Source of the DNA: a virus
Taxonomy: Duplodnaviria > Caudoviricetes
DNA length: 64,000 nt
Reading direction: 5' to 3' (one strand)
IMG/VR virus record: IMGVR_UViG_3300037067_007020
Span: 1 to 64,000 of that record
The notes under the pieces are model-generated. The model was not told the DNA's origin. It saw only the letters and a program-made list of their open reading frames with translations, and ran no database searches. Positions 8,666 to 37,563 of this stretch are shown one piece after another (the stretch's first letter is position 1; each line of letters starts with the position of its first letter). The translations under genes and the position numbers were made by a program.

Positions 8666-9244
8666 ATGATAATACTTAAACCAGAAATTCTTTGCTGTCC
8701 TAATATTCCAAAACCTCTTCATTCAGTTAATCCTAGAAATATCATGGGAAAAGAAAAATGGGATATATTAAGACAAGATGTTTATAAATCTACTCAATAT
8801 CATTGTATAGCCTGTGGAGTACATAAATCAGAAGCAAAAAAGCACCAATGGCTGGAAGCACATGAAAATGTTAATATAGACTATAAAAAAGGTATTGTCG
8901 AGGTTAAAGAAATTGTTCCTTTGTGTCACTATTGTCACAGTTTTATTCATTCTGGAAGACTAGGAATGATTCTAGGAAAAGAAAAAACCAGAAAAGAAGT
9001 AAAAGAAATACTAGAACACGGATTTAAAGTTTTAAGAAAACATAAATTAAAAGTGTTTGTAGGAACAACTTATCTTGCTTTAGAACTACGAATAAATCAT
9101 CAAGGAATAGAAATATGGTATCCTCCTGCCAACGATAATATAAAATGGAATGATTGGAAATTGATATATGAAGGAAAAGAACATAAGCCTAAATTTAAGA
9201 GTTATGAAGAATGGAAAAACAATTATTTTAGTCAAGAAACATAA
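8666..9244 (+). CDS. HNH-like zinc-binding nuclease family protein
   Basis: CIACG...LEAHE...LCHYCH.FIH. Confidence 0.65.
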   Translation: MIILKPEILCCPNIPKPLHSVNPRNIMGKEKWDILRQDVYKSTQYHCIACGVHKSEAKKHQWLEAHENVNIDYKKGIVEVKEIVPLCHYCHSFIHSGRLGMILGKEKTRKEVKEILEHGFKVLRKHKLKVFVGTTYLALELRINHQGIEIWYPPANDNIKWNDWKLIYEGKEHKPKFKSYEEWKNNYFSQET

Positions 9245-10249: not shown

Positions 10250-10558
10250 ATGGAAAAACTGTTATTAAATAATGTAGAAGAATTTAAGTTGTGGTTAAAT
10301 AACGAAACTTATGGAGGACATACATATGACACCATATATCCTTTTCAGAAACCAGAAAAATATCCTTGTGTAGTTTTTTGGACAAATGAATTTATAGATG
10401 ATGAAGTAGAAACATATTGTGATTTTGTTTATCCGACAGATTTTATTGATCTGATACCAAAAACAATAGATTTTCTTATAGATACATATAATTCCCAATT
10501 AGGTTCTGAATGTTGTAGGCAGTTACAAGAGATTAAGGAAGAAATAAAAAATGTCTAA
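10250..10558 (+). CDS. Hypothetical protein, PxxYPC paralogue 1
   Basis: LL.N..EF..W...PEKYPC. Confidence 0.55.
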   Translation: MEKLLLNNVEEFKLWLNNETYGGHTYDTIYPFQKPEKYPCVVFWTNEFIDDEVETYCDFVYPTDFIDLIPKTIDFLIDTYNSQLGSECCRQLQEIKEEIKNV

Positions 10559-11828
10559 CGAAAAGAAAAACAACACTCTATTAGCTTCTGTAGGAAGTGA
10601 AAAAGAAGTAATTAAAATTCTTCTTAAATTTCCTACGTTCATTAAAGAAGTATCTGTGCTTCTTGAAATAGAGGATTTTTATATTTTCGCTCACAAATTC
10701 ATCTACAAGAGATTGTTAGAACTGGACAAAAGAAACATAGTTCCTGATGTGCAGACCATACAAAAAATCGGAGAAGAAATACCTGACATAAACACGTTGT
10801 TAAAAGAACTACAGACACAAGGATTAGAAACAGACAAATTACATTCCTATATAAATCATATAAAAGAATGTGCAGGATATAGAGCAATAATAGAACTTTC
10901 TCCCAAGATTAAACAAATATCAGAAAACGAAGAATTGGATATAGAACAGAAGAAAGAAGAAATAGAAAAAACAGTTCACAGTTCACTTACAAAAAATACA
11001 ACAATAGTAGATTGTTCTGTAAGTTCTGCTGTACAAGATACAAAAAATAAACTAATAAAAGCCAAAAACAAAGACTTTGGAATACGAACAGGAATACAAA
11101 AACTCGACTCTAGAATTATTGGATTAGAAGAAGGCGAAACAGTAATGATAGGAGCAAGAACTTCTGTAGGAAAATCGTTGTTAGCAGGACAAATGGCTTT
11201 GAATATGGCACTAAAAGGAATTGGAGTTGTATTTGTTTCTTACGAAATGGCAAGAGATCAATTAGTAAGAAGAATGTTATCCTCCATGACAGGAATTGAT
11301 CATACACGAATTACTATAAATAACTTATCCCAAGAAGAAGAGAAAAAAATCAACGAAGCATTTGATATATTAGCACAACTTCCTATGGCAATAATAGATG
11401 ATGCAGGAACAAAATTATCAGATATACGCTCAAAAGTATATCGACTTCCTTTTAAGCCAAAAGCGTTATATATAGATTATATTCAATTAGTTCCTGCTGT
11501 CAAAAAAAATTCCAATAGATATGTTGAAGTTGGTTCTGTTTCTCATGAACTTAAACATATGGCAAACAAATCCGACCTAAACTTGACAGTAATAGCTCTT
11601 GCACAATTGTCTAGATCAATAGAACAAAGAACAAACGGTATTCCAAAATTATCAGATTTTAGAGAATGTGGTGATATTGAGCAAGATGCAGATAGAGTAA
11701 TTGCATTAACCAGAGGAAGAGAACAAACATATATTAATACTTATATACTTAAACAGAGAAATTTTCCTACTGTTCCAGAAGAAGCATTAGATATACCAGT
11801 AAATTTTAATATACAGAGAGTAGGATAA
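10551..11828 (+). CDS. dnaB: Replicative DnaB-type (SF4) helicase
   Basis: N-terminal DF...H..IY domain; GARTSVGKS Walker A, SYEM, IDYIQL, LAQLSR, SDFRECGDIEQDAD, KQR. Confidence 0.95.
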   Translation: MSNEKKNNTLLASVGSEKEVIKILLKFPTFIKEVSVLLEIEDFYIFAHKFIYKRLLELDKRNIVPDVQTIQKIGEEIPDINTLLKELQTQGLETDKLHSYINHIKECAGYRAIIELSPKIKQISENEELDIEQKKEEIEKTVHSSLTKNTTIVDCSVSSAVQDTKNKLIKAKNKDFGIRTGIQKLDSRIIGLEEGETVMIGARTSVGKSLLAGQMALNMALKGIGVVFVSYEMARDQLVRRMLSSMTGIDHTRITINNLSQEEEKKINEAFDILAQLPMAIIDDAGTKLSDIRSKVYRLPFKPKALYIDYIQLVPAVKKNSNRYVEVGSVSHELKHMANKSDLNLTVIALAQLSRSIEQRTNGIPKLSDFRECGDIEQDADRVIALTRGREQTYINTYILKQRNFPTVPEEALDIPVNFNIQRVG

Positions 11829-19772: not shown

Positions 19773-20077
19773 GTGTTTTGACGAAAGAAAAGCCCATAAA
19801 GTATTAAAATCTTGTCCAAAAATTGTTAGAGATTATGTTCAACTACTTGAGAGAAATATTGAGATTCAAAGAGGATTGATCAGTGATGCTATAAGAAAAT
19901 TAAGCGAAAAGAAGGACAAATAATGTATTGTTCTAAATGCGGAACAAAATTATCTGATAAAATCTGTCCTAATTGTCAAGAAGAATTGTATATTTATGAA
20001 ACACAATACGAATATATGTATGAACCTGTTTCGGAAAATTTTATGAACAAAGTTTATTTACAAAGCGAGGAAAATAA

Positions 20078-20587
20078 ATGACATCAACATTTTATGCATA
20101 TTTGCCTTCTTTTTATGATGATTCTTTTGAGCGTCCTATATATAAATTTAATACAACAAAGGAATTGTTTGCGTTTCCTTGGTTTATTGAAATAAATACC
20201 AATGAAGTTGATGGATACAAATTTTTAGGTTATCGTATATCAGAACACAAAGAAAACAATGCATATACTTTGTTTACTGTGTTTGGAGATTATAAAACTT
20301 GGCATGTTGTTGGATATATCGTTACTGAAGATATGTCTATAATTAACAATTTTATTAAATTTGACGAAACAAAAGCAAACAAAGAATTAGCAATTGAAGC
20401 AGAAAAAGACCGCAAAGAATTTGAAGAATATAAAAAAACACCAGAATACAAAAAACAACTAAAAGAGGAAAAAGCTCAACGCAAATATTTTTTTGAAACA
20501 ATCACTAATAACATATCGAACACTAATCCATGTCCTAATCTTACTAAACTTATCACAGAACTTTCCAAAGGAAAATTGAATGACTAG
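20078..20587 (+). CDS. Hypothetical protein
   Basis: 169-aa ORF with GAGGA RBS. Confidence 0.55.
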   Translation: MTSTFYAYLPSFYDDSFERPIYKFNTTKELFAFPWFIEINTNEVDGYKFLGYRISEHKENNAYTLFTVFGDYKTWHVVGYIVTEDMSIINNFIKFDETKANKELAIEAEKDRKEFEEYKKTPEYKKQLKEEKAQRKYFFETITNNISNTNPCPNLTKLITELSKGKLND

Positions 20588-21176
20588 AATAGCATTTTGT
20601 GGAAGAATGGGTTCAGGCAAAACAACGGCATGTAAGTATTTAGTAGAACAGTCTAAAGTATTAAACAAGACATCTACTATTCTTTCTTTTGCTCAACCGT
20701 TAAAAGAATTGGCATATCAATTGTTTGGTTATGAAAATAAATCTCAAGTATTTAATTTTGGAGGAAGAACAATAACTGCAAGAGAATTGTTACAAGAATT
20801 AGGAAACAAAATGAGAGAAATAAATCCTAATATATGGCGAGATTTGTTAGAAAAGAAAATAAAAGAAAACTTCCAAACAGAAAATATATTTATCGACGAT
20901 TTAAGATTTAATAACGAAGAAGAAATGTTGATAAAAAATAACTTCAAAATAGTAAGCCTTGTTTCAACAGAAGAAGATAGAATGAAAAGAATGTTTTTGA
21001 GAGACGGGGTTTATCCTGAAAAAGAACTTCTTCATAAATGTGGAGAAGATACTATTTTCAAAAAAAGTGTGTGTCTTATCAGAAATCAAGGAATTGATGA
21101 TTATACTCTAGAAGAATTTTATAATCAATTAGACATTTTTTTCAATGACATACATAACAAATACACTGTTTTATAA
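20580..21176 (+). CDS. Deoxynucleoside monophosphate kinase
   Basis: GRMGSGKTT P-loop, SFA.PLK, RELLQELG, IDDLRF.NE. Confidence 0.85.
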   Translation: MTRIAFCGRMGSGKTTACKYLVEQSKVLNKTSTILSFAQPLKELAYQLFGYENKSQVFNFGGRTITARELLQELGNKMREINPNIWRDLLEKKIKENFQTENIFIDDLRFNNEEEMLIKNNFKIVSLVSTEEDRMKRMFLRDGVYPEKELLHKCGEDTIFKKSVCLIRNQGIDDYTLEEFYNQLDIFFNDIHNKYTVL

Positions 21177-21367
21177 GGAGTACATTAATGTTTTGTAAAT
21201 GTTGTGGAGAAAAACTTGAATTGTTAGAAATGAATCCTGAAGAAGGAATTAAATTCTATCGTTGTGACGAATGTAATGAACAATTTATAGAAGATATGGA
21301 TGCTCAAGACTACAGAGACTATGAAATAGAAAGAAACATATCTCTGAGAGAGGAAAAGTTTTAATAA

Positions 21368-21898
21368 ATGCAAACATACGGAAAAATCATTGTTTTTATT
21401 CTAAAATTTCTTATTTTTCTTGCTCGAAACATTGAACATGATGGGTCTGAGAAAAAATATCTGATCGAAGAAGCTAATAATTATATAATAACTCTGGACA
21501 AAAAAACAATTCGATCATATCATTCTACTGAACAAGAACAGCAACATGAATTGGTTCAACAAAAAGAATTATACAGAGGAAATCGAAAGTTAATAGAACT
21601 ATTTGTTGCTCTTTTTGCCGAGAAAAACAAGAACAATAAGATAGCACTTTCTAAAGAAATTAAACTTTGGCTCGACATAAATAATTTCTTAACCGAATCA
21701 AAGATGTCTTACGAATCATTTGAATTTGGAGTAAATACATGTCTTGATAAACATATTCCTAATTTAAACTATGCCAAAAGAGCAAGTGAAGGACACTGGG
21801 AAAAGAATAAACCCGAACAAGCAACGTTAATAGGAATAGAAGAAAAGAAAGAAAAAGCAATAGCTTATTTTAACGAAATTTTTAGACCAAGGGAGTAG
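21368..21898 (+). CDS. Hypothetical protein, possible DnaD-like helical domain
   Basis: GVNTCLDKHIPNLNYAKRASEGHW loosely resembles the DnaD/DnaB_2 Y...I...W motif. Confidence 0.35.
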   Translation: MQTYGKIIVFILKFLIFLARNIEHDGSEKKYLIEEANNYIITLDKKTIRSYHSTEQEQQHELVQQKELYRGNRKLIELFVALFAEKNKNNKIALSKEIKLWLDINNFLTESKMSYESFEFGVNTCLDKHIPNLNYAKRASEGHWEKNKPEQATLIGIEEKKEKAIAYFNEIFRPRE

Positions 21899-22166
21899 AA
21901 CTTGTTAAATAAAGAACAGCAAGGTATTGCTAATGCTCTAAAATTCGATCTTGGTGAACAATTACATTGTTATGGATATAATTCAGATTTAATGAACTAT
22001 TTTGTTACATTTTTAGATGATGCTAAAGTAAACCCTGAAATTATATTAGAAGTATTAGAACATTTTAGAGATTCCGTAGATGTTAATCAAGAATATTTAG
22101 AACAAGATATTTCAGATTATAAAAGCAGTATTGGATATTAAACGAGAAAAGGAGAACATAAACAAC

Positions 22167-23423
22167 ATGACAAATACAAAGGATTTAATTATTAAATTAT
22201 TAGAAGAGAATAATTATGACAAGAGTAAGGTATATAAGTTATATGATACTGTTGTTCAGGAATTAGATGAAGATATTAAGTATTCAACCTTTGAAAGAAA
22301 TGTACGAAAGGTGTTTACAGAACTGACAGAAAATGATAATCTGTTGTTAGAGAACATTTATCTTGCCAAAAAAGCACAGGGTCTTGAGGATAAACAGAGA
22401 ATAGAAAAAGCCGCATTTAGAGATATGGCAAGGTTAGACAATTCTATCATAGAATATAATCAGAAGTTAATTGAATTGTTAGAAAAGTGTAATCTCAAAG
22501 AATATACAGTTTCACACAAAATTCCTAAGAACACAAACTATGTAGGTATCATTCATATTACAGATACCCACTTCAATGAACTTGTAAATCATAGTCACAA
22601 TAAATATGATTTCAAAGTAGCATCTTCTAGACTAAAGAAGTTGGTAGAAGTTGCTCGAACTCAGTTCAAAGCGTTTGGAGTAAAGAAGGTTTTAGTAGCT
22701 TCTACAGGAGATTTGTTAAACAGCGACCGAAGATTAGATGAAATACTCGCAATGTCCACAAATAGAAGCAAAGCAACATTCCTTGCTGTTCAGTTGTTGC
22801 AACAAGTAATTTTAGACCTTAATAAAGATTTCAATGTTTTAGTAACTGGGGTAACTGGAAATGAATCTAGAATTAAAGAAGAAATTGGTTATAATGAATT
22901 AGTTGCTACTGATAATTATGACTATACTATATTAGAGATACTTAAACTCATATTCAAAGAAGCAAAAGGAATAGAGTTTATTAATTCTGGTTACAACGAA
23001 GGAATTGTCGAAATAGAAGGAACAAATATTTTGTTAATGCACGGTTATTCTCAAAAAACAGACATTGAAAGATATGTTCAACAGATCAAAGGAAGGTATT
23101 CTTCTAACGGACAAAAGGTTGATTATGTTCTAATGGGTCATTACCATAGTACTAGACTAGCAGATCACTATGCCAGAGGAGCAAGTTTAGTTGGTTCGAA
23201 TGATTATAACGAATCTAATCTAAATTTAGCAGGAAGAGCAGCACAAAACATATTTCTTATTTCTAAGGAAGGGGATGTTCATGGAACTAGAGTTGATTTA
23301 CAGAACGCTTCTAATGACATTTTTGGTTCGTATGACATAAACAAAGAATTAGAAGCTTATAATGCCAAGAGTGCTGAGAAATCGAAAAAAGGCAAAAAGA
23401 ATTATAAAATAAGGATTGAATAA
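22167..23423 (+). CDS. Calcineurin-like phosphoesterase with N-terminal helical region (DNA polymerase small-subunit-like)
   Basis: ITDTHF, TGDLL, TGNESR, MHG and GHYH motifs; AGGAG RBS. Confidence 0.75.
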   Translation: MTNTKDLIIKLLEENNYDKSKVYKLYDTVVQELDEDIKYSTFERNVRKVFTELTENDNLLLENIYLAKKAQGLEDKQRIEKAAFRDMARLDNSIIEYNQKLIELLEKCNLKEYTVSHKIPKNTNYVGIIHITDTHFNELVNHSHNKYDFKVASSRLKKLVEVARTQFKAFGVKKVLVASTGDLLNSDRRLDEILAMSTNRSKATFLAVQLLQQVILDLNKDFNVLVTGVTGNESRIKEEIGYNELVATDNYDYTILEILKLIFKEAKGIEFINSGYNEGIVEIEGTNILLMHGYSQKTDIERYVQQIKGRYSSNGQKVDYVLMGHYHSTRLADHYARGASLVGSNDYNESNLNLAGRAAQNIFLISKEGDVHGTRVDLQNASNDIFGSYDINKELEAYNAKSAEKSKKGKKNYKIRIE

Positions 23424-23675
23424 TAAAAATGACTAAATACAATAATCTTACAGACAAAATAACAGAAACAATTGTTTCTTTAAACAAACAAAACATATTT
23501 GTTTTAGAATTGATTATAGGTCTGTCTGAACTAGAACAATTATTAGATGAACAAATGATATAAATAGAACCTTTTGTAATATATAAATTTTCGGGACTGA
23601 CCATTAAGATAGTAGATAAGATAAATTATCTTAAATATATAATCGAACTTCCTACAACTCAAAAGGTAGACAGAT

Positions 23676-24002
23676 ATGTTTAAAAAATTATTTTCTTGGT
23701 ATCTTATAATTAATAAACAAAATCCGTATAAATACATAGAACAATTGCATCAGCAGAATAAACAATTTATGGACGACAATACAAAGTTAATAGAAGAAAT
23801 ACAGAAAGAAAAAGAAGACATCGATGGATTGTTAAAACTTGTTTATGACTTAGAAGGAGAATTATCTCGCAAGAATGAAGAAATTGCATTTCTTACTACT
23901 CCTTCAGTTTTAGACCCGATGAATATGGTTTATAATTGGATGGTTGGTGGAAACAACAACCCCAAAAAGAAAGAAAAGAATGACAACAACAGTAATAAAT
24001 AA
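23676..24002 (+). CDS. Coiled-coil hypothetical protein
   Basis: Heptad-rich 108-aa ORF overlapping the polymerase start. Confidence 0.5.
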   Translation: MFKKLFSWYLIINKQNPYKYIEQLHQQNKQFMDDNTKLIEEIQKEKEDIDGLLKLVYDLEGELSRKNEEIAFLTTPSVLDPMNMVYNWMVGGNNNPKKKEKNDNNSNK

Positions 24003-27000
24003 TCTTCAGAAAAATCAAACAAACCAAGAATACGATATACTTCTTAATGGTTGTGACCCTGAAGAAAATATTGTTGCCACTTCTGTTATTGATGGAGTTG
24101 CTTATGTGTATAAGAGAAACAAAGAAACTGACACAGTTACTTCTTATGAAGACGAATTTCATCCTTTTATCTGGATTAAAAAAGAAAAATGTCATATATC
24201 TCCAAAATACGAAAGGCATATACAAAGAATAGACCTTAAAGGAAAAGGTGTCTATAATCAAATAATTAATTTTGATTCTCATATAGACATGTATACGTTC
24301 CTCAAAAACTATGTTCCTCCTACAAAGATGTCTGCTCCTGATTTAGTTCCAGAAGACTATTCAGACTACAAAGCAAAAAAAGATTCCAATGATCAGTACT
24401 TGATACAGACAGGCAAGACACTATTTAAAGGAATGAATTACAACGACCTTAAAATAATGGCATTTGATATAGAAACCACTAGAATTGTAAGAGACTATGA
24501 AGGAAACATAACTTGTGATATAAAAATGATTTCTGTTGTCGATAACAGAGGATTTAAAACTGTTATATATGAACCAACAGAAGCAGAAATGATAAAAAAA
24601 TTCTTTGCTCTGATAAGGAAAAATGATTGGGATGTTTTGTTAAGCTATAACGGCTATCTTTTTGATTGGCTTGTGATTTATCAAAAAGCACAAGCATTAG
24701 GAATACCAACAACCATTGGAAGACATAATTTAGAAATGAAAGTTCTTCCGACCACTATACGAATGGGAGATAATAAACAAGCCAAGTTAGATATTTTTAT
24801 TGTTCCCGGCAGACAAAACATAGACCTATATTATTCAGTAAGAAAATATGATACTACTTTACGCTCAATGGACGCAAGTTATAACTTGAAAAGCGTTATT
24901 AGTGAATTGGAACTTGAAAGAGAAGGCAGAGTATTTGTTCCGGGAGACATGATTCAGGAAACGTTAGAAAAAGACCCTGAAAAGGTAAAAGAATATTGTC
25001 TAGATGATTCAATAGATACTTTAAATTTAGGAGAATTTCTTCTTTCTACCGATTTTGTAGCTACTCAATTGCTACCAATGTCATTTGAAAAAGAAGTTCT
25101 GGCAGGAAATTCGACAAAAATAGAATCTCTGTTTCTTAGAGCATATTATTTATACGAACATTCAATTCCTCAGTCTGCTTTAAAAACCGATAGTGTTCCG
25201 GGTGGATACGTAGACTGTAAAAGAAAAGGTACTGATAAAAATATAGTACATATAGATGTATCAAGTCTTTATCCTTCAATAATTGTCAAAGATTTGATAA
25301 AACCATTAACCGACGAATTAGATATTTTTGTTCCTATAATCAAAACAATGAAAGTAAAAAGACTTTTTGGCAAACAAGAAGAAAAAAATTTCGCAGAAAA
25401 AAATGATTGTAAAGAAGAAAAAAAGTGGTTTGGTTTTCAAAACGCTTTTAAGGTTTTTATTAATGCAATGTATGGCGTACTTGCATCCATGTATTTTCCT
25501 TGGAATGATATAAAAGAAGCGACTAAAATAACAGAAGAAGGACAAAGATTAATAAAAATTATGATTTCTGTATCTGAAAATTGTGGGTTTGCTCTGAAAA
25601 ACGCAGATACGGATGGTATTTATATCACTCTGCTTGATATAAATAAATGGAATGAAAAAATTGGTCAGAAATATGGAATTTTTGAACCTGAATATGATAA
25701 AGAAACAAAAATTATGTTAAATTACAAAGAATTTGTTGAAAAAACAAAAAATTTCATTAATGATTCATTACCCGAAGGAATAGAAATAGATACTAAGTTT
25801 TATGAATCTATGTGTTCAATATGTCCAAAAACATATGTACTTAGAGAACTTTCAGGAAAAACTATTTTGAAAGGTGTTTCGTTAAAATCAAAAGGAATGG
25901 AAAAATTTGGTCAAGAATTTATTTCTAAGTCCATACAATTAATTATGGACGATAAAAAAGATCAAATAAAATTTCTGTATAGAAAGCTCAGAGAAGATAT
26001 TATAGGACATAAACTACCTATCGAATATTTTCAACAGTCCAAAGAGGTGAAAAAGACTCCTGAACAGTATTTGAGAGAGAAGAAAACAACTCAAGCACAT
26101 TATGAATTGATGTTAAAAACAGGAAGATCGGTAGAAAGAGGCACAAGAGCATATTATTATCTTGCCCAAGGAGAAATACCAAAGTTTTCGGAAGATTATG
26201 ATACAAACAAACCAGACGAAGATATTAATTATCTTCTGTCCAAATTAGAAGGTTTTACTCGGCGTTTGTTTAATCCTGAAAAACCTTTTGATTCAGTTTT
26301 AACAGAAAATGATTATGTTAATATATTTGCAGACGAAATGCCTCAAATGACATTAAATTTTGATAGTTATGACTGTGCCGATTTTTATAATCCTAGTTAT
26401 GAAGGTGGAAAATGGAATCGAAAAAAGATTCTAGAGCATGAAATAGACTTCATATCTAAAAATCCTATAGATTCTTATAGAACTATTCAGAAGTTTAGAA
26501 ACAACAATCAAATTGACGAAAAACATATCTCAGATTTATATTTTGACATAGATTCAGAAATTACACCAGAAATCAAAGAAAAGGTTAAAACTGCAAAAAC
26601 AATAGAAGAAAAATTATTAATTCTTGAAACAGTAATTACATCAGGACTAGAAGATGTTTATAAAATAACAAATTATTTTATTTCTAAAATGGGATTTACT
26701 AAAAACGATTTTGAAATTTATTTTTCAGGATTTAAAGGATTTCATTTAATAATACCTCATGAAAAATTTGGCATTACTACAGGAAGAAATGATCTTACTT
26801 ATATTTATAAACTAATTGCTATGAAGTTGGACGAAGATTTAGATTTGCAGAATATAGACATAGGAAGTATTTATTCTAAGAGAAGAATGATTCGTCTTCC
26901 TTTTACAATAAATTCTAAATCAGGATTAATGAAAATACCTCTTACTTTAGATGCTATAAACAATCATTTTTCTAAAAAAGAAGGTTCTATTCATATTCTA

Positions 27001-27531
27001 CAGGCAATTTGTGCAACAGAATTTTATATTCAAAAAAACAATTGTTCTATAAAAGAATTGTATGATAGCAAAGATAAAATTAAACCAGATAGAAGTATTA
27101 ATCTTATTGCCGAAACATGGTTTAAAAATATTGTAAAGGAATATGAAGACAATGATACTATAGAAGCATGTAGCAAACCAAAATATAAGTTCGTCAGACT
27201 TAAAGATTATCCTATTTGCATTAAGGAAATTTTACGATCAGGTATTAGACATAATGGCGATAGAAATAAAGCCACAATAGTTATGGCTACATTTTTCAAA
27301 AATTTAGGAAAATCAGAAAAAGAAACAACTGAAATAATAACTAAGTGGGCATTAGAATTACCTAATAATATGACTACTTCTTCTAATACACAAATTGTTA
27401 ATTCTACAAAGACTGCTGTTAAAACAATTTATTCTTCAGACAGATATTATTTTTCTTGTGCATCGGTTAAGTCTTTAGGAAGTAAAGAGTCAAAAATACC
27501 TTGTTTAAAATCTTGTGTATTAAATGACTAG
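23944..27531 (+). CDS. polB: Family B DNA polymerase fused to archaeo-eukaryotic primase and PriL-like C-terminal domain (ATG 23980 is an alternative start)
   Basis: Exonuclease: FDIET, YNGYLFD, YCLDD. Polymerase: DVSSLYPS, K..INAMYG, ADTDG. AEP: LYFDID, FSGFKGFH, D...RMIRLP...NSKSG. CTD: YPIC...G.R...FSC...PC..SC. Confidence 0.92.
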   Translation: MVETTTPKRKKRMTTTVINNLQKNQTNQEYDILLNGCDPEENIVATSVIDGVAYVYKRNKETDTVTSYEDEFHPFIWIKKEKCHISPKYERHIQRIDLKGKGVYNQIINFDSHIDMYTFLKNYVPPTKMSAPDLVPEDYSDYKAKKDSNDQYLIQTGKTLFKGMNYNDLKIMAFDIETTRIVRDYEGNITCDIKMISVVDNRGFKTVIYEPTEAEMIKKFFALIRKNDWDVLLSYNGYLFDWLVIYQKAQALGIPTTIGRHNLEMKVLPTTIRMGDNKQAKLDIFIVPGRQNIDLYYSVRKYDTTLRSMDASYNLKSVISELELEREGRVFVPGDMIQETLEKDPEKVKEYCLDDSIDTLNLGEFLLSTDFVATQLLPMSFEKEVLAGNSTKIESLFLRAYYLYEHSIPQSALKTDSVPGGYVDCKRKGTDKNIVHIDVSSLYPSIIVKDLIKPLTDELDIFVPIIKTMKVKRLFGKQEEKNFAEKNDCKEEKKWFGFQNAFKVFINAMYGVLASMYFPWNDIKEATKITEEGQRLIKIMISVSENCGFALKNADTDGIYITLLDINKWNEKIGQKYGIFEPEYDKETKIMLNYKEFVEKTKNFINDSLPEGIEIDTKFYESMCSICPKTYVLRELSGKTILKGVSLKSKGMEKFGQEFISKSIQLIMDDKKDQIKFLYRKLREDIIGHKLPIEYFQQSKEVKKTPEQYLREKKTTQAHYELMLKTGRSVERGTRAYYYLAQGEIPKFSEDYDTNKPDEDINYLLSKLEGFTRRLFNPEKPFDSVLTENDYVNIFADEMPQMTLNFDSYDCADFYNPSYEGGKWNRKKILEHEIDFISKNPIDSYRTIQKFRNNNQIDEKHISDLYFDIDSEITPEIKEKVKTAKTIEEKLLILETVITSGLEDVYKITNYFISKMGFTKNDFEIYFSGFKGFHLIIPHEKFGITTGRNDLTYIYKLIAMKLDEDLDLQNIDIGSIYSKRRMIRLPFTINSKSGLMKIPLTLDAINNHFSKKEGSIHILQAICATEFYIQKNNCSIKELYDSKDKIKPDRSINLIAETWFKNIVKEYEDNDTIEACSKPKYKFVRLKDYPICIKEILRSGIRHNGDRNKATIVMATFFKNLGKSEKETTEIITKWALELPNNMTTSSNTQIVNSTKTAVKTIYSSDRYYFSCASVKSLGSKESKIPCLKSCVLND

Positions 27532-28728
27532 GAAGAAGAATTAAATGTTTGAACAATGTGATAATTGATATTGTATGGACGAGAAAGGAAAATTGAAATG
27601 AGACTAGAAATATATGATTATAAAAACGGAAACGGTTATCAGGATTGGATTATTTTAGAAAAAGACATTAGTGATATTGAATTAAAGAAAATCAAAAACA
27701 TTTTAAAAAGGAAAGAATAATGATTTTATTTTTGATAGCAAGAATATTGATAGAATTGTATATAATTTGGTTAAGTTTATGCAAGATTTTTGTTTTGTTG
27801 TTTCAATTGTTTTTTGAATTGATTATGTTTGTTCCTTGTTATTTAGAAATATTGTTATCTAAGGAATATTTAAATGACTAAAACAAAAATAACAAAAGAA
27901 TCTACTATAAGAGAAGTTGAAAAAGAGTATAATGTTTATATTTCTCATAATAAAAATATGAAGTTGTATGAATATTTGTCTCAAATGGGATTTCCTAGTC
28001 TGGCAGAATTGCTGGATTGTAGAAATAAATTATTGAAACAAGAGGAGAAATAATATGGCTCAGCAACCAATGCCTAAATATGTGTATAAAATAGACATGT
28101 CTAAAATTCAGACTATAGAAGACATAAAACTTATTCTATCTATGATGGATTTAGAAACAGCAAGTTTCAAAGAAGACGAAAGTGATATGACTCCTGTCAA
28201 ACATCTTTTAGGACAAAAACGAAAAATAGAACTTAAACTAAAACCAGTAGTTCCAGACATTATTATTCCGGGGAGATAATAGTATGAAAATTAAAACAGG
28301 AGATTTTATGGTTTGTGACAATATTAAAAACACAAAAGAAGACAAATTTTGGATATTTTTAAAAAATTTCAATTGGTTCTTTATAGGTTTTTTTACTGCC
28401 TTTGGATTAATGATATTGTTAATGTTTTTATAAGGAAAGAATATGGCTATAATAGATAAAAACAAATCAATGATGGAAATATCAATCAGGAACAAAATAA
28501 AGTGTAATTGTGGGTGTTTATCACAAGACCATCATGGTGGGTTTGGGTGGTGTAGTAAGTGTGGATGTACATTCTATTGGCCTAATGATAAGTGGATAAA
28601 AAAATTTAGAGCATTAAATCCAGATTATACCAAAGTATCTAAAAAGGTTAAAAAAATTAGAAACGAAGGTATTAAAAATGTTTTAAAAAAAATATCAAAA
28701 CAACAACGAGAAAAGGAGAAAATATAAA

Positions 28729-29100
28729 GTGCAAAATTTAATAATTTTTGAAGGAAGAGTCGGAAACGATCTAGACATTAAATTTACACCAAATGGCATA
28801 CAATATGCTAAATGGAGTATGGCACAAGGTCATATGACCAAAAAAGAAGAAAAAATTACTATGTGGGTCAATTGTATCTCGTATGCCAAATCAATGGAAT
28901 ATATTAAGAAAATAGTTAAAAAAGGCAATAGAATTATGGTTCAAGGAAGATTAAATTCAAGATCATATGAAAAAGATGGTAAGAAGAATACTATATACGA
29001 AATAGTTGTTACTCAGTCATGGGAAGTAAATCGTATAGTTGAAGACAATGAACAAGAAAATAATTCTTCGGTCGATGTTGATGCTATTCTAAAGGACTAG
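28729..29100 (+). CDS. ssb: Single-stranded DNA-binding protein
   Basis: GRVG.D...FTPNG, W.NC, KKG.RI.VQGRL.SRSYEKDG.K...EIV; acidic tail. Confidence 0.85.
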   Translation: MQNLIIFEGRVGNDLDIKFTPNGIQYAKWSMAQGHMTKKEEKITMWVNCISYAKSMEYIKKIVKKGNRIMVQGRLNSRSYEKDGKKNTIYEIVVTQSWEVNRIVEDNEQENNSSVDVDAILKD

Positions 29101-29868
29101 AAAATGATTAATGAACAAAAATTATGTTTACAAGATAAAGACGGTGTTTTGATTTTTTCTGACCACAGAACAGGAAAATATGTCAGAAATGCTACGAAAA
29201 AAGACATATGTTTATTGATTGACAGATCAATAGAAATTTGTGTTGAAAGGGTTAGAAAATGGGGTTAAAAAAAGAAACAAAGAAAACAAGAGAAAAGGTA
29301 GGCAATATAGATATAGAAACTGCACAAAAATTAATAAAAGACTATTGTTGTTTCTTTAATGTAGTAGGAAGCAGTTGTCCTTTTTATCCTGACAATGGTT
29401 GTTTTGCTTATGACGAAGAAGATATTAGCAGAAAACCTTGTTTACATTTTGGCATATGTATATATACTTTGATGATCGACGATAGGAAAGTTAGAAACGA
29501 ATTTATTAAGTCTCTATTAAAGAAATGTGAAGAAAGAAAACAAAAACCTTTGGTAAAAAAGGAGAAAAAAACCAATGACAAAAAAGAAAACTCAGAAAAC
29601 AAAAGAAACAAAAAAAATCGTAAAGGAAGAGGAAAAATTGTACGGAATAATCGAACAAGCAAAAATTCAAAATCAAACAGGAGAAACAGTAAAAGACTTT
29701 CAAGCGATACATCTGTTAACAGAAAAAGAAGCAGAAGAAGTTCTAAATAATTGTGACGATGAACCTAATTTGTTTCTTTTAACTCCTGTTCCTGTTTACA
29801 AAACTGAAAATTTTGTTATTCAGAATGTGTATTCTCTTAATCCGAATACGATAGAAGGGTTTTAAAAA

Positions 29869-30756
29869 ATGTCACCTAAAAATTTGTTTAACCAAAATGA
29901 GCCTGACAAATGTAAGAATTGTGAAAAACCTGTTACTATAGGCATTAAGTTTTGTTCAGGATACTGTGAATTTATCGATACAGTCAACAATCTGAGACGA
30001 GAAATAGAAACACTTATGACTTCAAATCCTTTTACATGTGCAATATGCAATAAAACATTTAGGCTTGCTCTAAGAAAGAAAACATATTATCCATATTGTT
30101 CAAGAAAATGTATGAACGAAGGACATTTGAAGGACACAAAAAACAAAGTTCTTAAATATCTTGGATGGCTTGGAGAAATTCATAATGGCAAAATAACTAA
30201 TAAACAAGTTAAGGATGATTTAAAAGAAAAGATTCTAAAATTCTTTCCTTCTGTTCAAAAAGCCGTTGAAGAATCTGGCAACGAATATGTTATCATTAAA
30301 GGAGGATTTAAGTCTGTAGGACGATTATCTAAGGCTTATAAGAGACAAGATTTAGACGGTCTGTTTGTGCGTTCTTCTTGGGAAGCAAATTATTTAAGGA
30401 TTCTAAGACATTTAAAATGGAACTATGAATATGAACCACAAGTATTTGAATTTCCGGTTAAAAAAGGAAATAGGTTCTATCTACCAGATGTATATTTAAC
30501 AGATCATAAAGAATATATAGAAATTAAAGGGTTCATGGATAACAATTCTCGTATCAAGATAGATCGTTTTCATAAATACTATCCAGATTTAAAACTAAGT
30601 ATCTTAGGAAGAAAAGAATACGATTTAATGAAAGACATAGGGTTTTTGCTTCCTATATGGGAATTTTCTTCAGTCGATGACATTGTTAAAAATATTGTTT
30701 TTAAGCAACAAATACTTGATAATAAGGAATATGAAAGGTGTAAAACATGGATATAA
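29869..30756 (+). CDS. Zinc-finger plus PD-(D/E)XK endonuclease
   Basis: CxxC/FCS..C fingers, then RSSWEAN, YEYEP, YLPD, IEIKG. Confidence 0.75.
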   Translation: MSPKNLFNQNEPDKCKNCEKPVTIGIKFCSGYCEFIDTVNNLRREIETLMTSNPFTCAICNKTFRLALRKKTYYPYCSRKCMNEGHLKDTKNKVLKYLGWLGEIHNGKITNKQVKDDLKEKILKFFPSVQKAVEESGNEYVIIKGGFKSVGRLSKAYKRQDLDGLFVRSSWEANYLRILRHLKWNYEYEPQVFEFPVKKGNRFYLPDVYLTDHKEYIEIKGFMDNNSRIKIDRFHKYYPDLKLSILGRKEYDLMKDIGFLLPIWEFSSVDDIVKNIVFKQQILDNKEYERCKTWI

Positions 30757-30844
30757 TTATGACAATAGGTTTTGTAGGATTTTTAATGTGTCTAATATAC
30801 ATTGAATTATATTTAGGATATGAACCAACTCAACGGTCAAAAAA

Positions 30845-30893
30845 CAAGAAACATAAAACTTAGTTGTTTGAAATAATTTTTTTATGATATAAT
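30845..30893 (+). promoter_or_regulatory. Repeated early promoter, copy 3
   Basis: CAAGAAACATAAAACTTAGTTGTTTGAAA-N14-TATAAT, near-identical to copy 1. Confidence 0.75.
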
Positions 30894-31046
30894 ATATTAA
30901 AAAAGGAAAAAACATAATGACTGAATTAGATATTTTAAACATTTTGTTAGAGAATTTTAATAAAATAGTAAGAATTGAATTTAAACCAAATTTAAAAAAT
31001 AAAACAACGACATATAAATTCATTGTTCAATACTAGGAGATTTTAA

Positions 31047-31457
31047 ATGGAAGACATAGTTCTTAAAATAGGTATTTATTCTAATGAACAAATAATAGAC
31101 GTTGTTAAGAAAGTAGAAACTCTGCTAGATAAAACTATCAATACGTTAGATTCTATTGCTGTTAGAGAGTATATTTCTGCTCTTTCTGCATACAGAGGAA
31201 GACTTGTTGCTATAGAATCTCAGATATACAGAGAATTAGTTGAAAAGAGAAAAAGAGCCATAGATGATAATGTTATGACAGGAAAATCTTCCGAGCTGAG
31301 AGACATACAACTTGACGACTATACAAAGGTAGATAAGAGCAATTTTGATCTTATAAGGAAATATAGAGAAGAATTAACTGCCAAGACAACACTATGTTCT
31401 TCTATGTTAAAGAGCATTGATCTTCATTCTACAAGAGGAACAAGAGAGTATCAATGA
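31047..31457 (+). CDS. Helical protein, possible UvsY-like recombination mediator
   Basis: 136-aa all-helical ORF near recA; inferred from size and context. Confidence 0.35.
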   Translation: MEDIVLKIGIYSNEQIIDVVKKVETLLDKTINTLDSIAVREYISALSAYRGRLVAIESQIYRELVEKRKRAIDDNVMTGKSSELRDIQLDDYTKVDKSNFDLIRKYREELTAKTTLCSSMLKSIDLHSTRGTREYQ

Positions 31458-31617
31458 AGCATGATTGTAGAGATTTGAAAAACATAGATGTTTATTATAT
31501 TCCTGTATATGACATAACAAACAAATATGTTGGAAATAATGTAGAATATCGTTGTAAAATATGTGACAAAGTATTAAAGACAAAATTTGATAACAGATTG
31601 TTTTATGAAAGATCATA

Positions 31618-32664
31618 ATGAATTTAAAAGAAGTCTCTAAAGAAACTAAAAAACAACTACTAGGAGAAAGATATATGGATTTAGACAAGTTTGATAAACA
31701 ATTTTTAGGACAAGGAGTAAATATAGAATGTCCTATTATGCCTACAGGAATAGATGCTCTTGATTCTGCTCTTGGTGGTGGTATTATGCTAGGTCATCAT
31801 ATTGAACTATGGGGCAAAGAAAAGGCTGGTAAGACACTTTTGTCCATTATTATTGCCTCTGCATTTCAAAAGGCAGGAAAAAAGGTTATGTGGGCTGATC
31901 TAGAGGGAAGGTTTGTTCCTTCTTGGGCAGAAAAATGGGGTGTAGATACAGACAAACTATTAAAACCTATTAATTGTACATTTGCAGAACAGTTTATGGA
32001 TTTATTTATTGTTAGAACAATTCGTAATGACGTAGACCTTATTATTATAGACAGTATTCCAAAGTTTGCTCCTAAAGCAGTATTGGATAAAATGACAGGA
32101 GAAAAAACAATGGGTTCTAAACCTGCTCTTTTGTCTTTGGCAATGGAAAACATAGACGCATATAGACAAGAACATTTATCGAACGGAAAGATACCTCCTA
32201 CGTTTATCTGGATTAATCAGGTTAGAGAAAAAATTGGTGGTTATAGTATGCACGGAACTCCTGAAACTACTCCCGGTGGTCATTGTATTGCTCATGCCTT
32301 TAGTCAAGTAATTAAGTTAAAAGTAAAGGGAGACGGATTTTTGTTAAAAGACGGAAAAGAAACTGCAACTAAAACAGACCCTAATGTTGTAGGTTACACA
32401 GCAGAAGGACAAATAATGAAGAACATACTTACTCAGTCTGACAGAATTTTTAATTATAAAATTAATCTTCAAGATCATACTATAGATAATCTTTCTAGTC
32501 TTATAGAAATTAAGAAAGATTTTGTAAGAAAAGGTGCATGGTTTTATCTAGATTTTCTTGGTAAGGATTTTGTGGGTCAGACTATTCAAGGTGAGGCCAA
32601 TTTTAGACAGAAGTTGTTAGAAAATCCGGCTTATATTGAAAAATTGAGAAAATATGAAGGATAA
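31618..32664 (+). CDS. recA: RecA/UvsX recombinase
   Basis: PTG..ALD.ALGGG, ELWGKEKAGKT, DLE, IIIDS, INQVREKIG, ETTPGG, KGAWF. Confidence 0.93.
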   Translation: MNLKEVSKETKKQLLGERYMDLDKFDKQFLGQGVNIECPIMPTGIDALDSALGGGIMLGHHIELWGKEKAGKTLLSIIIASAFQKAGKKVMWADLEGRFVPSWAEKWGVDTDKLLKPINCTFAEQFMDLFIVRTIRNDVDLIIIDSIPKFAPKAVLDKMTGEKTMGSKPALLSLAMENIDAYRQEHLSNGKIPPTFIWINQVREKIGGYSMHGTPETTPGGHCIAHAFSQVIKLKVKGDGFLLKDGKETATKTDPNVVGYTAEGQIMKNILTQSDRIFNYKINLQDHTIDNLSSLIEIKKDFVRKGAWFYLDFLGKDFVGQTIQGEANFRQKLLENPAYIEKLRKYEG

Positions 32665-36876: not shown

Positions 36877-36969
36877 CTATATGGTTAATTTTTGTATATG
36901 TTTTGTTATTTTAACCGTTTTTCTATTGGAGTTTGTTTAAATCATAAATTAAAAAGGAGCAAGAACACA

Positions 36970-37563
36970 ATGACACAGAAAAAAGAAAGAATAATAATTA
37001 AAGGCATTTCAAAATTTACGCATTTGATAACACCCGAAGAATATAAGAGACAAAAGAAATTTACTGTTGCCATAGTAATGGAAAAGGACAGTGAGGAATT
37101 TAGAGAACTTAAAGAAAAACTGATGTTATATTTACAAGAAAATAAAGAAGAGATTTTAAAAGAAAACAAAATTCCTTCTGCAACATGGAGTGAAATAAAA
37201 GAGGTTTATCCTTGGAAAGACGATTTGAAGAAGGATGAAGACGGTTCTCTTGTTCCAACAGGTAAAATTTATATAAAAGTATCTTCCAAGGCAGAGATAA
37301 TGAAGAACGGTGTTGTTACTCCTTTTAACATTAATTTCTTTGATGTGAACAATAACAAGTTGATTGATGTTGAAGAAATAGGAGACGGTTCTAAGTTAGC
37401 TGTTAGTGCTATTGTTAACATTTATTGTGGAGATAAGAGCGAGAAGACAATAGGAATTTCTCTTTGGTTAGGTGCGGTACAAATCATTAGTTTAAAGACA
37501 TATGGTGACAATGGTGCTTCTTTTGGGTTTAATGTTGAATCAGAAGAAATCAGTTCCGAATAA
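36970..37563 (+). CDS. T7 gp2.5/DUF2815-type ssDNA-binding protein
   Basis: F.HL..P, IG.GS, GISL.L.AVQII.L..YG and acidic FGF..E tail. Confidence 0.8.
   Translation: MTQKKERIIIKGISKFTHLITPEEYKRQKKFTVAIVMEKDSEEFRELKEKLMLYLQENKEEILKENKIPSATWSEIKEVYPWKDDLKKDEDGSLVPTGKIYIKVSSKAEIMKNGVVTPFNINFFDVNNNKLIDVEEIGDGSKLAVSAIVNIYCGDKSEKTIGISLWLGAVQIISLKTYGDNGASFGFNVESEEISSE

What the first reader, a model, noticed from the sequence alone, without database searches (positions are those of the whole stretch)
23944..27531. Single-chain PolB-PriS-PriL: a self-priming, proofreading replicase resembling Pol alpha/primase
Seen in one uninterrupted ORF: (i) intact 3'-5' exonuclease motifs (DIET, YNGYLFD, YCLDD) and PolB motifs (DVSSLYPS, K..INAMYG, DTDG) up to about 26300; (ii) AEP catalytic motifs DLYFDID (26533), SGFKGFH (26725) and D...RMIRLP (about 26860-26900); (iii) a terminal domain YPIC...G.R...FF...G...YFSC...PC..SC with four Cys spaced like the [4Fe-4S] ligands of the archaeo-eukaryotic PriL C-terminal domain. 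Established: PriS-PriL fusions and AEP-helicase fusions are known, and eukaryotes join PolB and primase non-covalently. I do not know of a characterised covalent PolB-AEP-PriL protein. Inference: the enzyme makes a primer and hands it off intramolecularly. That would be a new replication architecture and a possible primer-free amplification enzyme.
Basis: partly seen in the sequence, partly recalled or inferred. Interest (0 to 1): 0.92.

Follow-up and report, generated by a model that had tools for sequence, protein, structure and literature searches.

The report
Phage polymerase fused to archaeal-type primase
A groundwater phage encodes one 1195-residue protein joining a proofreading family-B DNA polymerase to a complete archaeal/eukaryotic-type primase; the fusion is real and conserved in a small, rare clade, but it is a new domain order of an already known idea (primase-polymerase fusions such as phage 1706 GP55), not a new kind of replication.

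Summary
Window 23944-27531 (+) is one open frame with three parts: a family-B polymerase with all exonuclease and polymerase motifs, a PriS-like primase (AEP) domain, and a helical four-cysteine domain like PriL-CTD/PriX. It is not an assembly artefact. Seven other full-length proteins (about 31-33% identical), from independent metagenomes, have the same order and keep every catalytic residue and all four cysteines. Two closer relatives split the polymerase at about residue 585-590 but keep thumb and primase in one gene. In trees the fused forms group together, consistent with one old fusion. The clade is rare: about 14 clusters among the 150 best primase-module relatives listed, and none among the 80 best loci kept from the viral collection. 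The 101-kb contig (71% complete) has a DnaB-like helicase and single-strand-binding proteins but no DnaG/Toprim match, so this module is probably the phage primase. The claim of a new replication architecture is overstated. A helicase-primase-PolB protein (GP55, phage 1706) has been characterised, as have single-chain PriS-PriL primases (NEQ395; the primase-MCM of Bacillus phage phBC6A51). I found no paper describing this order. An earlier scan note reports a PolB-AEP-helicase chain elsewhere. Priming, Fe-S binding and intramolecular hand-off are untested.

The parts
23944..27531 (+). Whole gene for the PolB-PriS-PriL(CTD)-like fusion protein. It has 1195 codons from TTG at 23944. A database gene call gives 1194 aa. 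The likely true start is the ATG at 23980, behind a purine-rich stretch.
24391..25143 (+). 3'-5' exonuclease domain, about aa 150-400. ExoI is D175/E177, ExoII is N236/D241, and ExoIII is Y351/D355.
   Evidence: Pfam PF03104 scores 63.6 bits. The motifs are conserved in the fused family, with one member (P0159) degenerate in ExoI and ExoIII.
25144..26388 (+). Polymerase palm, fingers and thumb, about aa 401-815. Motif A is D438..Y443, motif B is K503..G511, motif C is D555-T-D557, and KxY is K629/Y631. Unfused relatives end at the equivalent of about aa 815-820.
   Evidence: Pfam PF00136 scores 49.3 bits. Archaeal PolB structures match at E about 4e-27 over aa 150-765.
26329..26433 (+). Junction, aa 796-830. 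It holds the end of the PolB tail, with the motif vLsxExFxxIF conserved in the fused family, and a link of about 10 residues (ADEMPQMTLNFDS) into the first AEP strand.
   Evidence: In the AF2 model of aa 800-1195, order begins at model residue 11.
26431..27078 (+). PriS-like AEP catalytic domain, about aa 830-1045. Motif I is D868/D870 (26545-26553), motif II is S928-G-F-K-G-F-H934 (26725-26745), and motif III is D972 (26857-26859) with R984.
   Evidence: The A1 profile matches S. solfataricus PriS at E 3.4e-12. VIA gives Z 11.9 to 1zt2_A and 11.8 to human PriS in 8b9d_O. Foldseek top hits are PriS chains. Motifs.
27079..27528 (+). C-terminal helical domain of the PriL-CTD/PriX/PriCT type, aa 1046-1195. 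It carries four conserved Cys: C1092 (27217), C1172 (27457), C1187 (27502) and C1191 (27514).
   Evidence: AF2 pLDDT is 91.6. VIA gives Z 7.7-8.1 to PriX (5of3_C) and 5.0-5.4 to the yeast PriL Fe-S domain (6di2_A). The A1 profile matches yeast Pri2 aa 301-445 at E 8.7e-5. Three Cys are invariant and C1172 is at least 90% conserved in 38-44 sequences.
10551..11828 (+). Context: a DnaB-like (SF4) replicative helicase, the probable fork partner.
   Evidence: phrog_19, E 7.1e-76
28729..29100 (+). Context: a single-strand DNA-binding protein just downstream. A second, gp2.5-like one lies at 36892-37563.
   Evidence: phrog_44, E 1.3e-22; phrog_112, E 2e-16

Best explanation
This is the replicase of a tailed phage from groundwater. 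One polypeptide carries a proofreading family-B DNA polymerase and, directly after the polymerase thumb, a compact one-chain archaeo-eukaryotic primase. The primase is a PriS-like catalytic domain plus a four-cysteine helical domain of the PriL-CTD/PriX type. Inferred mechanism: the AEP active site (D868, D870, H934, D972), helped by the helical domain that in related primases holds the initiating nucleotide and template, makes short primers on single-stranded DNA exposed by the phage's DnaB-like helicase. The PolB active site then extends them with proofreading. Covalent linkage keeps primase and polymerase together at the fork. Whether the primer passes within one molecule or between molecules is open. 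The four cysteines probably hold a [4Fe-4S] cluster as in PriL and NEQ395. Shown here: the domain identities, the intact motifs, and that the fusion is real, recurrent and probably of single origin. Inferred: all activities, the metal cofactor and the hand-off.
For: The frame is open and the motifs are intact. PolB is supported by Pfam above cut-off and by E about 4e-27 to archaeal PolB structures. The primase module is supported by PHROG primase families at E 1.9e-39 and 3.2e-28. It is also supported by 1089 relatives in 1.84 billion representatives, a profile E of 3.4e-12 to PriS and 8.7e-5 to yeast PriL, and AF2 models with pLDDT 89.5 and 91.6. Fold matches are PriS at Z 11.9, PriX at Z 7.7-8.1 and PriL-CTD at Z 5.0-5.4. 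Cys1 and Cys2 fall at profile positions 244 and 325. Going by the reported alignment ranges, these coincide with yeast Pri2 C336 and C417 (the ligand numbers are from memory). Seven further full-length proteins of about 31-33% identity, from JGI, ENA, NCBI and Logan assemblies, share the same order. They keep D438, DTD555-557, K503, D868/D870, SGxKGFH, R984 and all four Cys invariant. One of them is identical on three contigs from two sources. The split relatives L002 and L003 still join thumb and primase. In the AEP tree, 13 of 14 PolB-linked modules form one clade. A single clade is not rejected and has the higher likelihood (+92.6 lnL, p-AU 0.95). In the PolB tree the fused forms lie outside a 99%-supported unfused clade. 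The contig has a DnaB-like helicase, SSBs and recombination genes. It has no match to DnaG_N, Toprim_2 or Toprim_4. Precedents show that such modules work. GP55 makes DNA de novo with separate primase and PolB centres (PMC12205980). NEQ395, a 393-residue PriS-PriL-CTD chain with a [4Fe-4S] cluster, is a highly active primase (PMC10250227).
Against: There is no biochemical or expression data. The contig is only about 71% complete, so a second primase cannot be excluded. Single-sequence Pfam scores for PriS and PriL are below their cut-offs. Fold scores for the helical domain are in the range where helical bundles can match by chance, and Foldseek gave no significant E-value for it. The fourth Cys is placed differently from eukaryotic PriL (CxxxC at the C-terminus), so a Zn site or no cluster is possible. 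In GP55 the primase and polymerase can act in trans (PMC12205980), so fusion does not prove intramolecular hand-off. No RNase H, FEN-type nuclease or ATP-dependent ligase match was found in the contig, so primer removal is unexplained.
Confidence: 0.7

Rival explanations
1. The AEP module is not the general lagging-strand primase. It would instead be a specialised enzyme: an origin-specific initiator (as RepB' or ColE2 Rep are), or a PrimPol-type repriming or lesion-bypass activity that rescues the attached PolB when it stalls. Routine priming would be done by a host DnaG or by a gene in the missing 29% of the genome.
For: Many AEPs of mobile elements act as initiators or PrimPols (PMC4538821, PMC5862659). 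RepB', LigD-Pol, PrimPol and Prim-PolC score nearly as high as PriS in the fold search, at Z 8.4-12.0. SF4 helicases pair with AEPs in only 19% of viral cases (PMC4889955). The contig is incomplete.
Against: The best sequence-profile matches are the replicative PriS and PriL. The nearest sequence relatives are the primase modules of primase-MCM replication proteins. No other primase match was found in 101 kb. Viruses that encode a polymerase nearly always encode a primase (98%, PMC4889955).
Confidence: 0.15
2. The C-terminal helical domain is a PriX/PriCT-like helix bundle without an iron-sulfur cluster. Its four cysteines would bind zinc or form a structural knot. It would still assist initiation by binding nucleotide and template.
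For: The best structural match is PriX, which has no cluster, at Z 7.7-8.1 against 5.0-5.4 for PriL-CTD. The last two Cys form a CxxxC at the extreme C-terminus, unlike eukaryotic PriL. PriCT, PriX and PriL-CTD are one related set with and without clusters (PMC5862659).
Against: All four Cys are invariant or nearly so across PolB-fused, MCM-fused and stand-alone forms. The first two coincide with PriL cluster ligands in the profile alignment ranges. Photolyase-type folds, including the Fe-S photolyase PhrB, also appear among the matches. NEQ395, of the same size and layout, carries a [4Fe-4S] cluster (PMC10250227).
Confidence: 0.25
3. The single ORF is an artefact: a chimeric assembly or a sequencing error that removed a stop or frameshift between separate polB and primase genes.
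For: The exact protein is known from one contig only. Logan contigs of the two holder runs are short and of low depth (about 3-7x). None of the listed pieces bridges 26289-26500. One close relative (L002) does have a frame change inside polB.
Against: The same junction is present in at least seven other full-length proteins and five or more thumb+primase proteins from independent samples. The junction region is alignable and conserved. No variant letters or indels were seen in the contigs that were laid. The frame change in L002 and the split in L003 lie about 230 codons upstream of the junction, not at it.
Confidence: 0.02

Closest known systems
GP55 of Lactococcus phage 1706 ('four-in-one replicase'; PolB group HelPrimPolB), PMC12205980, PMC4889955, PMC7544198
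   Same: It is one polypeptide with an AEP primase centre and a separate PolB centre with 3'-5' exonuclease. It is phage-encoded. It has been shown to synthesise DNA de novo from NTPs and dNTPs.
   Different: GP55 runs helicase, PriS-like domain, alpha-helix domain, then PolB. Here the order is PolB, PriS-like domain, then a four-Cys helical domain, with no helicase domain. The authors say GP55's helper domain is unrelated to PriL or the helix-bundle domain, whereas this one matches PriL-CTD/PriX. GP55's PolB belongs to a divergent EpsilonN-like group, whereas this one is closest to archaeal-type PolB structures and to unfused phage or bacterial PolBs. Phage 1706 was not among the tblastn matches at E <= 1e-5.
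Primase-MCM protein of Bacillus cereus prophage/phage phBC6A51 and its many metagenomic relatives (PriS-PriL-MCM)
   Same: The primase module is homologous over its whole length, about 28% identity at E 1e-30. It has the same motifs and the same four Cys.
   Different: There the module is N-terminal and fused to an MCM-type helicase. Here it is C-terminal and fused to the polymerase, and the helicase is a separate DnaB-like gene.
NEQ395, the monomeric PriS-PriL primase of Nanoarchaeum equitans (PMC10250227); also PolpTN2 of plasmid pTN2 (PMC3973330)
   Same: It is a compact single chain of 393 residues with a PriS catalytic domain and a PriL-CTD with a [4Fe-4S] cluster. It is an active, sequence-specific RNA primase. 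Its size and layout match aa 821-1195 here.
   Different: NEQ395 is a cellular, stand-alone enzyme that is not joined to a polymerase. Direct sequence relatedness to NEQ395 was not tested here.
Eukaryotic DNA polymerase alpha-primase
   Same: It unites a PolB, PriS and the PriL Fe-S domain in one machine, and the primer is passed from primase to PolB.
   Different: It is a four-subunit, non-covalent complex. Pol alpha's exonuclease is inactive, whereas all three Exo motifs are intact here. There is no B subunit and no PriL N-terminal domain here. This is analogy, not membership.

Membership tests
Family B DNA polymerase (proofreading, RNA/DNA-primed type) | Exonuclease motifs ExoI (DxE), ExoII (NxxxFD) and ExoIII (YxxxD) | tested here: met
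   D175/E177, N236/D241 and Y351/D355 are present. E177, N236, D241 and D355 are invariant in 8 fused proteins.
Family B DNA polymerase (proofreading, RNA/DNA-primed type) | Polymerase motifs A (DxxSLYPS), B (KxxxNSxYG), C (DTD) and KxY, with scores above the family thresholds | tested here: met
   DVSSLYPS at 438, KVFINAMYG at 503, DTDG at 555 and KTY at 629. PF03104 scores 63.6 and PF00136 scores 49.3 bits, both against a cut-off of 23. Archaeal PolB structures match at E about 4e-27.
Archaeo-eukaryotic primase superfamily, PriS-like | Catalytic motifs I (hhhDhD/E), II (sxH) and III (hD/E) | tested here: met
   YFDID (D868, D870), SGFKGFH (H934) and NID (D972). D868, D870 and S928-H934 are invariant in the fused family.
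Archaeo-eukaryotic primase superfamily, PriS-like | AEP/PriS fold and family-level sequence score | tested here: met
   AF2 pLDDT is 89.5. VIA gives Z 11.9, rmsd 3.5 and 193 aligned residues to 1zt2_A. The profile E to PriS is 3.4e-12. The single-sequence Pfam PF01896 score is only 20.3 bits against a cut-off of 26.8.
PriL C-terminal (Fe-S) domain / PriX / PriCT helix-bundle set | Helical fold of PriL Fe-S_N / PriX | tested here: met
   PriX 5of3_C scores Z 8.1 (95 aligned) and 7.7 (96 aligned), standing 2.6 above the next unrelated row. PriL-CTD 6di2_A scores Z 5.4 and 5.0. The profile E to yeast Pri2 aa 301-445 is 8.7e-5. Foldseek E-values are not significant, so the support is moderate.
PriL C-terminal (Fe-S) domain / PriX / PriCT helix-bundle set | Four cysteine ligands of a [4Fe-4S] cluster | tested here: inconclusive
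   Four Cys are conserved (C1092, C1172, C1187, C1191). The first two coincide with yeast C336 and C417 by alignment coordinates. The last two form a terminal CxxxC, unlike eukaryotic PriL.
PriL C-terminal (Fe-S) domain / PriX / PriCT helix-bundle set | Actual binding of an iron-sulfur cluster | not testable with these tools
   This needs anaerobic purification, UV-vis or EPR spectroscopy, and iron analysis.
Full PriL (primase large subunit) | N-terminal helical domain that docks on PriS | tested here: not met
   Only about 150 residues follow the AEP domain. The Pfam PF04104 match covers profile positions 76-154 of 266 only. The PDB profile match covers only the C-terminal domain of Pri2.
HelPrimPolB / GP55-like replicases | N-terminal SF3 helicase domain and the order helicase, primase, PolB | tested here: not met
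   No helicase family was found by Pfam or PHROGs. The N-terminus aligns to the PolB N-terminal and exonuclease regions. The order is reversed.
Primase-MCM (phBC6A51-type) proteins | MCM helicase domain C-terminal to the primase module | tested here: not met
   The protein ends 4 residues after the last Cys. MCM is present in 74 relatives but in none of the PolB-linked ones.
Eukaryotic Pol alpha-primase | Separate subunits, inactivated exonuclease and a B subunit | tested here: not met
   This is a single chain with intact Exo motifs. The comparison is analogy only.

The most novel reading that the evidence does not exclude
A monophyletic, rare clade of phage replicases is a natural single-chain counterpart of Pol alpha-primase, but with proofreading. 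The PriL-CTD-like Fe-S domain would deliver the nascent primer directly into the active site of the PolB to which it is tethered through the thumb. The protein alone could then perform accurate de novo DNA synthesis on unprimed template. The split relatives (exo+palm gene and thumb+primase gene) would show that the primase is an obligatory polymerase subunit.
Probability: 0.3. Interest if true: 0.72.

Novelty: new variant of a known kind. Interest (0 to 1): 0.55.

Why it matters
Primase-to-polymerase hand-off is hard to study in the large eukaryotic Pol alpha-primase. A 1195-residue single chain with a recognisable PriS, a PriL-CTD-like domain and an active proofreading PolB would be a compact model for it. 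It would complement GP55, which lacks a PriL-like domain. It also shows that the same phage primase module has been wired to the helicase (MCM fusions), left alone, or wired to the polymerase. That bears on how replisomes are coupled. If it primes on its own, it is a candidate for primer-free, proofread DNA amplification. The gain is incremental, because the principle has already been shown with GP55.

Tried and rejected
- Close relatives of the primase module were sought in IMG/VR with the single sequence. None was found.
- The same search with the A4 profile gave 173 relatives. The best 80 are all MCM-fused or stand-alone, and none is PolB-fused. The other 93 were not seen.
- Megablast of 20000-32000 against GenBank phages gave no match.
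- A word-index protein search for full-length relatives gave only PolB-only hits plus the window's own protein. The region search added P0274.
- A narrow 7-sequence profile of the C-terminal 150 residues against PDB sequences gave no significant hit. Exportin appeared at E 0.029 and PriL at 0.45-0.85. The wider A1 profile was needed.
- Foldseek of the isolated C-terminal domain gave no E <= 0.001. Its weak list does contain the pRN1 helix-bundle domain, RepB', PriX and PriL 4Fe-4S domains.
- Read support was inconclusive. Two groundwater runs of one study hold the stretch, and one may be the source of this DNA. Only short, low-depth Logan contigs could be laid. No listed piece bridges 26289-26500, and no differences were seen. 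This neither supports nor contradicts the junction.
- Family searches of the 101-kb contig for DnaG_N, Toprim_2, Toprim_4, beta clamp, 5'-3' exonuclease, ATP-dependent ligase and RNase H all gave no match. The contig is about 71% complete, so absence is not proven.
- Literature searches for this domain order found nothing. The one 'polymerase-primase fusion' phrase found refers to PrimPols.
- Full-length structure prediction and complex prediction were not run. Without inter-domain confidence output they would not have tested the hand-off.


Full report
**What is there**

The window is the first 64 kb of a 101,225-bp viral contig from IMG/VR, classed as linear and about 71% complete. Its G+C content is about 29%.

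It is a tailed phage. A tape-measure protein lies at 50427-54695 and an HK97-type major head protein at 60288-61187.

The + strand from about 5 to 38 kb is a DNA-metabolism block. It holds:
- a DnaB-like helicase (10551-11828)
- a radical-SAM protein
- a dNMP kinase
- an SbcD-like nuclease (22131-23423)
- the gene in question
- an SSB (28729-29100)
- resolvases
- a UvsX-like recombinase
- a methyltransferase
- an AAA+ protein
- PhoH
- a gp2.5-like SSB

The two sequencing runs that hold the stretch are groundwater metagenomes of one study.

**The observation**

ORF 23944-27531 is open for 1195 codons. The ATG at 23980, behind a purine-rich stretch, is the more likely start.

Pfam scores the PolB exonuclease and polymerase domains above their cut-offs. 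It gives sub-threshold hits to PriS (aa 867-942) and PriL (aa 1053-1135). PHROGs assigns aa 54-449 to a DNA polymerase family, and aa 843-1180 to two primase-type families at E 1.9e-39 and 3.2e-28. Solved archaeal PolBs (1qqc, Tgo, KOD, Pfu) match aa 150-765 at E about 1e-27.

**Is the fusion real?**

The exact protein is known from this contig only, so artefact had to be considered.

A full HMMER search of 1.84 billion representatives with aa 800-1195 found 1089 relatives. In most of them the module sits at the N-terminus of primase-MCM proteins of about 1000 residues, as in Bacillus phage phBC6A51. In others it stands alone at about 340 residues.

In a distinct set the module sits at the C-terminus of a PolB:
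- P0130 (1241 aa)
- P0274 (1247 aa)
- P0138 (1118 aa)
- P0140 (1237 aa)
- P0156 (1009 aa)
- P0159 (1050 aa)
- P0141 (1585 aa, with an intein in motif B)

The set also includes shorter proteins that begin inside the PolB (P0122, P0123, P0133, P0135, P0173, P0175).

These proteins come from JGI, ENA, NCBI and Logan assemblies. Their gene neighbourhoods are phage-like. P0156 is identical on three contigs from two sources. L008 shows the same local order as the window: DnaB-like gene, kinase-like gene, Metallophos nuclease, then the fusion.

The eight full-length proteins are only about 31-33% identical to the query, yet the following residues are invariant:
- exonuclease: E177, N236, D241, D355
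- polymerase: D438, S441, Y443, P444, K503, N507, G511, DTDG555-558, K629, Y631
- primase: D868, D870, SG-KGFH (928-934), R984
- cysteines: C1092, C1172, C1187, C1191

Unfused PolB relatives end at the equivalent of aa 815-820. The AEP fold starts about ten residues later.

In the two closest relatives the polymerase gene is divided at our residue 585-590:
- L002 (54% identical in the module) has two overlapping genes.
- L003 (42% identical) has about 2.3 kb of other genes, including thyX, in between.

In both, the second gene still encodes thumb plus primase. The junction is therefore older than these rearrangements.

Read-level support in the window itself could not be obtained. Only short, low-depth contigs were available, without differences but without a listed bridge over 26289-26500.

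**One origin?**

A tree of 142 primase modules puts 13 of the 14 PolB-linked ones in one clade, together with two short fragments. The sub-clades have 97-99% support. Forcing all of them into a single clade gives a better likelihood (+92.6) and is not rejected (p-AU 0.95). The group was named after the tree had been seen.

In a PolB tree the 36 unfused relatives form a 99%-supported clade that excludes all fused forms. Both trees fit one old fusion followed by long divergence.

The clade is rare. It makes up about 14 of the 150 best representatives listed. None of the 80 best loci kept from 173 relatives in the 2.9-million-contig viral collection is PolB-fused.

**What the C-terminal 375 residues are**

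An AlphaFold2 model of aa 800-1195, built with a 38-sequence alignment, has a mean pLDDT of 89.5. By Foldseek its best matches are PriS of S. solfataricus, RepB', human p49 and the Pyrococcus primase.

By exhaustive alignment, aa 808-1080 match Prim-PolC (Z 12.0), Sso PriS (Z 11.9, rmsd 3.5, 193 aligned) and human PriS (Z 11.8). Residues 1072-1186 match PriX (Z 8.1), and 1084-1195 match the yeast PriL Fe-S domain (Z 5.4).

The last 150 residues modelled alone (pLDDT 91.6) again give PriX first (Z 7.7, with the next unrelated row at 5.1). PriL-CTD follows at Z 5.0, then photolyases, ColE2 Rep and the NrS-1 helix bundle. Foldseek's non-significant list is likewise filled with primase helper domains.

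A sequence profile of the module matches Sso PriS at E 3.4e-12. It matches yeast Pri2 aa 301-445 at E 8.7e-5 and Sso PriL at 3.1e-4.

The first two conserved Cys are profile positions 244 and 325. With the reported alignment ranges these fall on yeast Pri2 C336 and C417, which I recall as two of the four cluster ligands. The spacing is 80 residues here against 81 in yeast. The last two Cys form a terminal CxxxC.

This agrees with the published view that PriCT-1, PriCT-2, PriX and the PriL Fe-S domain are one related set (PMC5862659). There is no PriL N-terminal domain.

**How it most likely works**

The module has the size and layout of NEQ395. That is a 393-residue monomeric PriS-PriL-CTD primase with a [4Fe-4S] cluster, and it is a highly active RNA primase (PMC10250227).

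No DnaG/Toprim-type gene matches anywhere in the 101 kb. The phage does have a DnaB-like helicase and two SSBs. Viruses that encode a polymerase almost always encode a primase (PMC4889955).

I therefore read the C-terminal module as the phage's primase, tethered to the thumb of its proofreading replicase. The helical Cys domain would help initiation, the AEP site would make the primer, and the PolB would extend it.

Whether transfer occurs within one chain is unknown. In GP55 the two activities complement in trans within a dimer (PMC12205980).

Primer removal is unexplained, because no RNase H, FEN or ATP-dependent ligase match was found. The genome is incomplete, however.

**Comparison with what is known**

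A covalent primase-PolB is not new. The HelPrimPolB group was described in 2016 and 2020 (PMC4889955, PMC7544198). Its member GP55 of phage 1706 was shown in 2025 to have helicase, primase, exonuclease and polymerase activities and to synthesise DNA de novo (PMC12205980).

GP55 differs in several ways. Its order is helicase-primase-PolB. It has a helicase domain. Its helper domain is said to be unrelated to PriL or the helix-bundle domain. Its PolB lineage is different.

Single-chain PriS-PriL modules are also known: NEQ395, PolpTN2, and the primase-MCM of phBC6A51.

What I could not find in the searchable literature is this combination and order: an archaeal-type proofreading PolB followed by a PriS-PriL-CTD-like primase, with no helicase. 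I did not test that note.

**Verdict**

The domain reading is supported. The fusion is genuine, conserved, rare and probably of single origin. It is a new variant of a known kind.

The functional claims (priming, cis hand-off, Fe-S cluster) are plausible by homology and precedent but are untested.

Noticed in passing
L002:11-3257 and L003:12-4372 (relatives), equivalent to window aa 585-590 (about 25700): In the two closest relatives the PolB gene is split at the same site, between motif C and KxY. In L002 the two genes overlap by 8 bases. In L003 they are separated by about 2.3 kb carrying small ORFs, thyX and a 217-aa ORF. The second gene encodes thumb plus primase. Several other database proteins (P0133, P0135, P0173, P0175) also start inside the PolB C-terminal part.
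   Followed up: partly
P0141 (1585 aa) and P0173 (897 aa), relatives: P0141 carries an intein with a LAGLIDADG domain inside PolB motif B. P0173 has a weak LAGLIDADG match between the thumb and the primase module. Selfish elements have repeatedly invaded this gene family.
   Followed up: no
window 26344-26361 (QMTLNF) and 26365-26430: The hexamer QMTLNF at the junction was flagged by another first-stage note (e1-5951744) as a beta-clamp motif. It is kept only in the closest full match (P0123: QMMLSF) and not in the other fused proteins. No beta-clamp gene matches in the 101-kb contig, although one relative's contig (L005) encodes a beta clamp.
   Followed up: partly
window 26365-26406 (aa 808-821): An amphipathic motif vL(s/t)xExFxxIF just before the junction is conserved in all fused proteins. 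It recurs as FFKPSDYSKIF near the C-terminal end (31 more residues follow) of a few unfused PolBs (P0004, P0007, P0010, P0011). It may be a docking or partner-binding helix of this PolB lineage.
   Followed up: no
L064-L088 (IMG/VR contigs of 130-250 kb): Stand-alone versions of the same primase module, 335-365 aa, are encoded mostly by jumbo-phage-sized contigs (130-250 kb). The MCM-fused versions sit mostly in contigs of about 15-105 kb.
   Followed up: no
window 43771-48669 (-), 48682-50388 (-), 56169-57731 (-): Three large ORFs in the structural module (1632, 568 and 520 aa) have no PHROG match at E <= 0.001.
   Followed up: no
window 5682-6224 and 8666-9244: Two HNH homing-type endonuclease genes lie in the replication block, and a further HNH/resolvase-like gene lies at 29869-30756.
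   Followed up: no
whole contig G000 (101,225 bp): No match was found to RNase H, 5'-3' exonuclease (FEN), ATP-dependent DNA ligase or a sliding clamp. How primers would be removed and nicks sealed is therefore not visible in the 71% of the genome in hand.
   Followed up: partly
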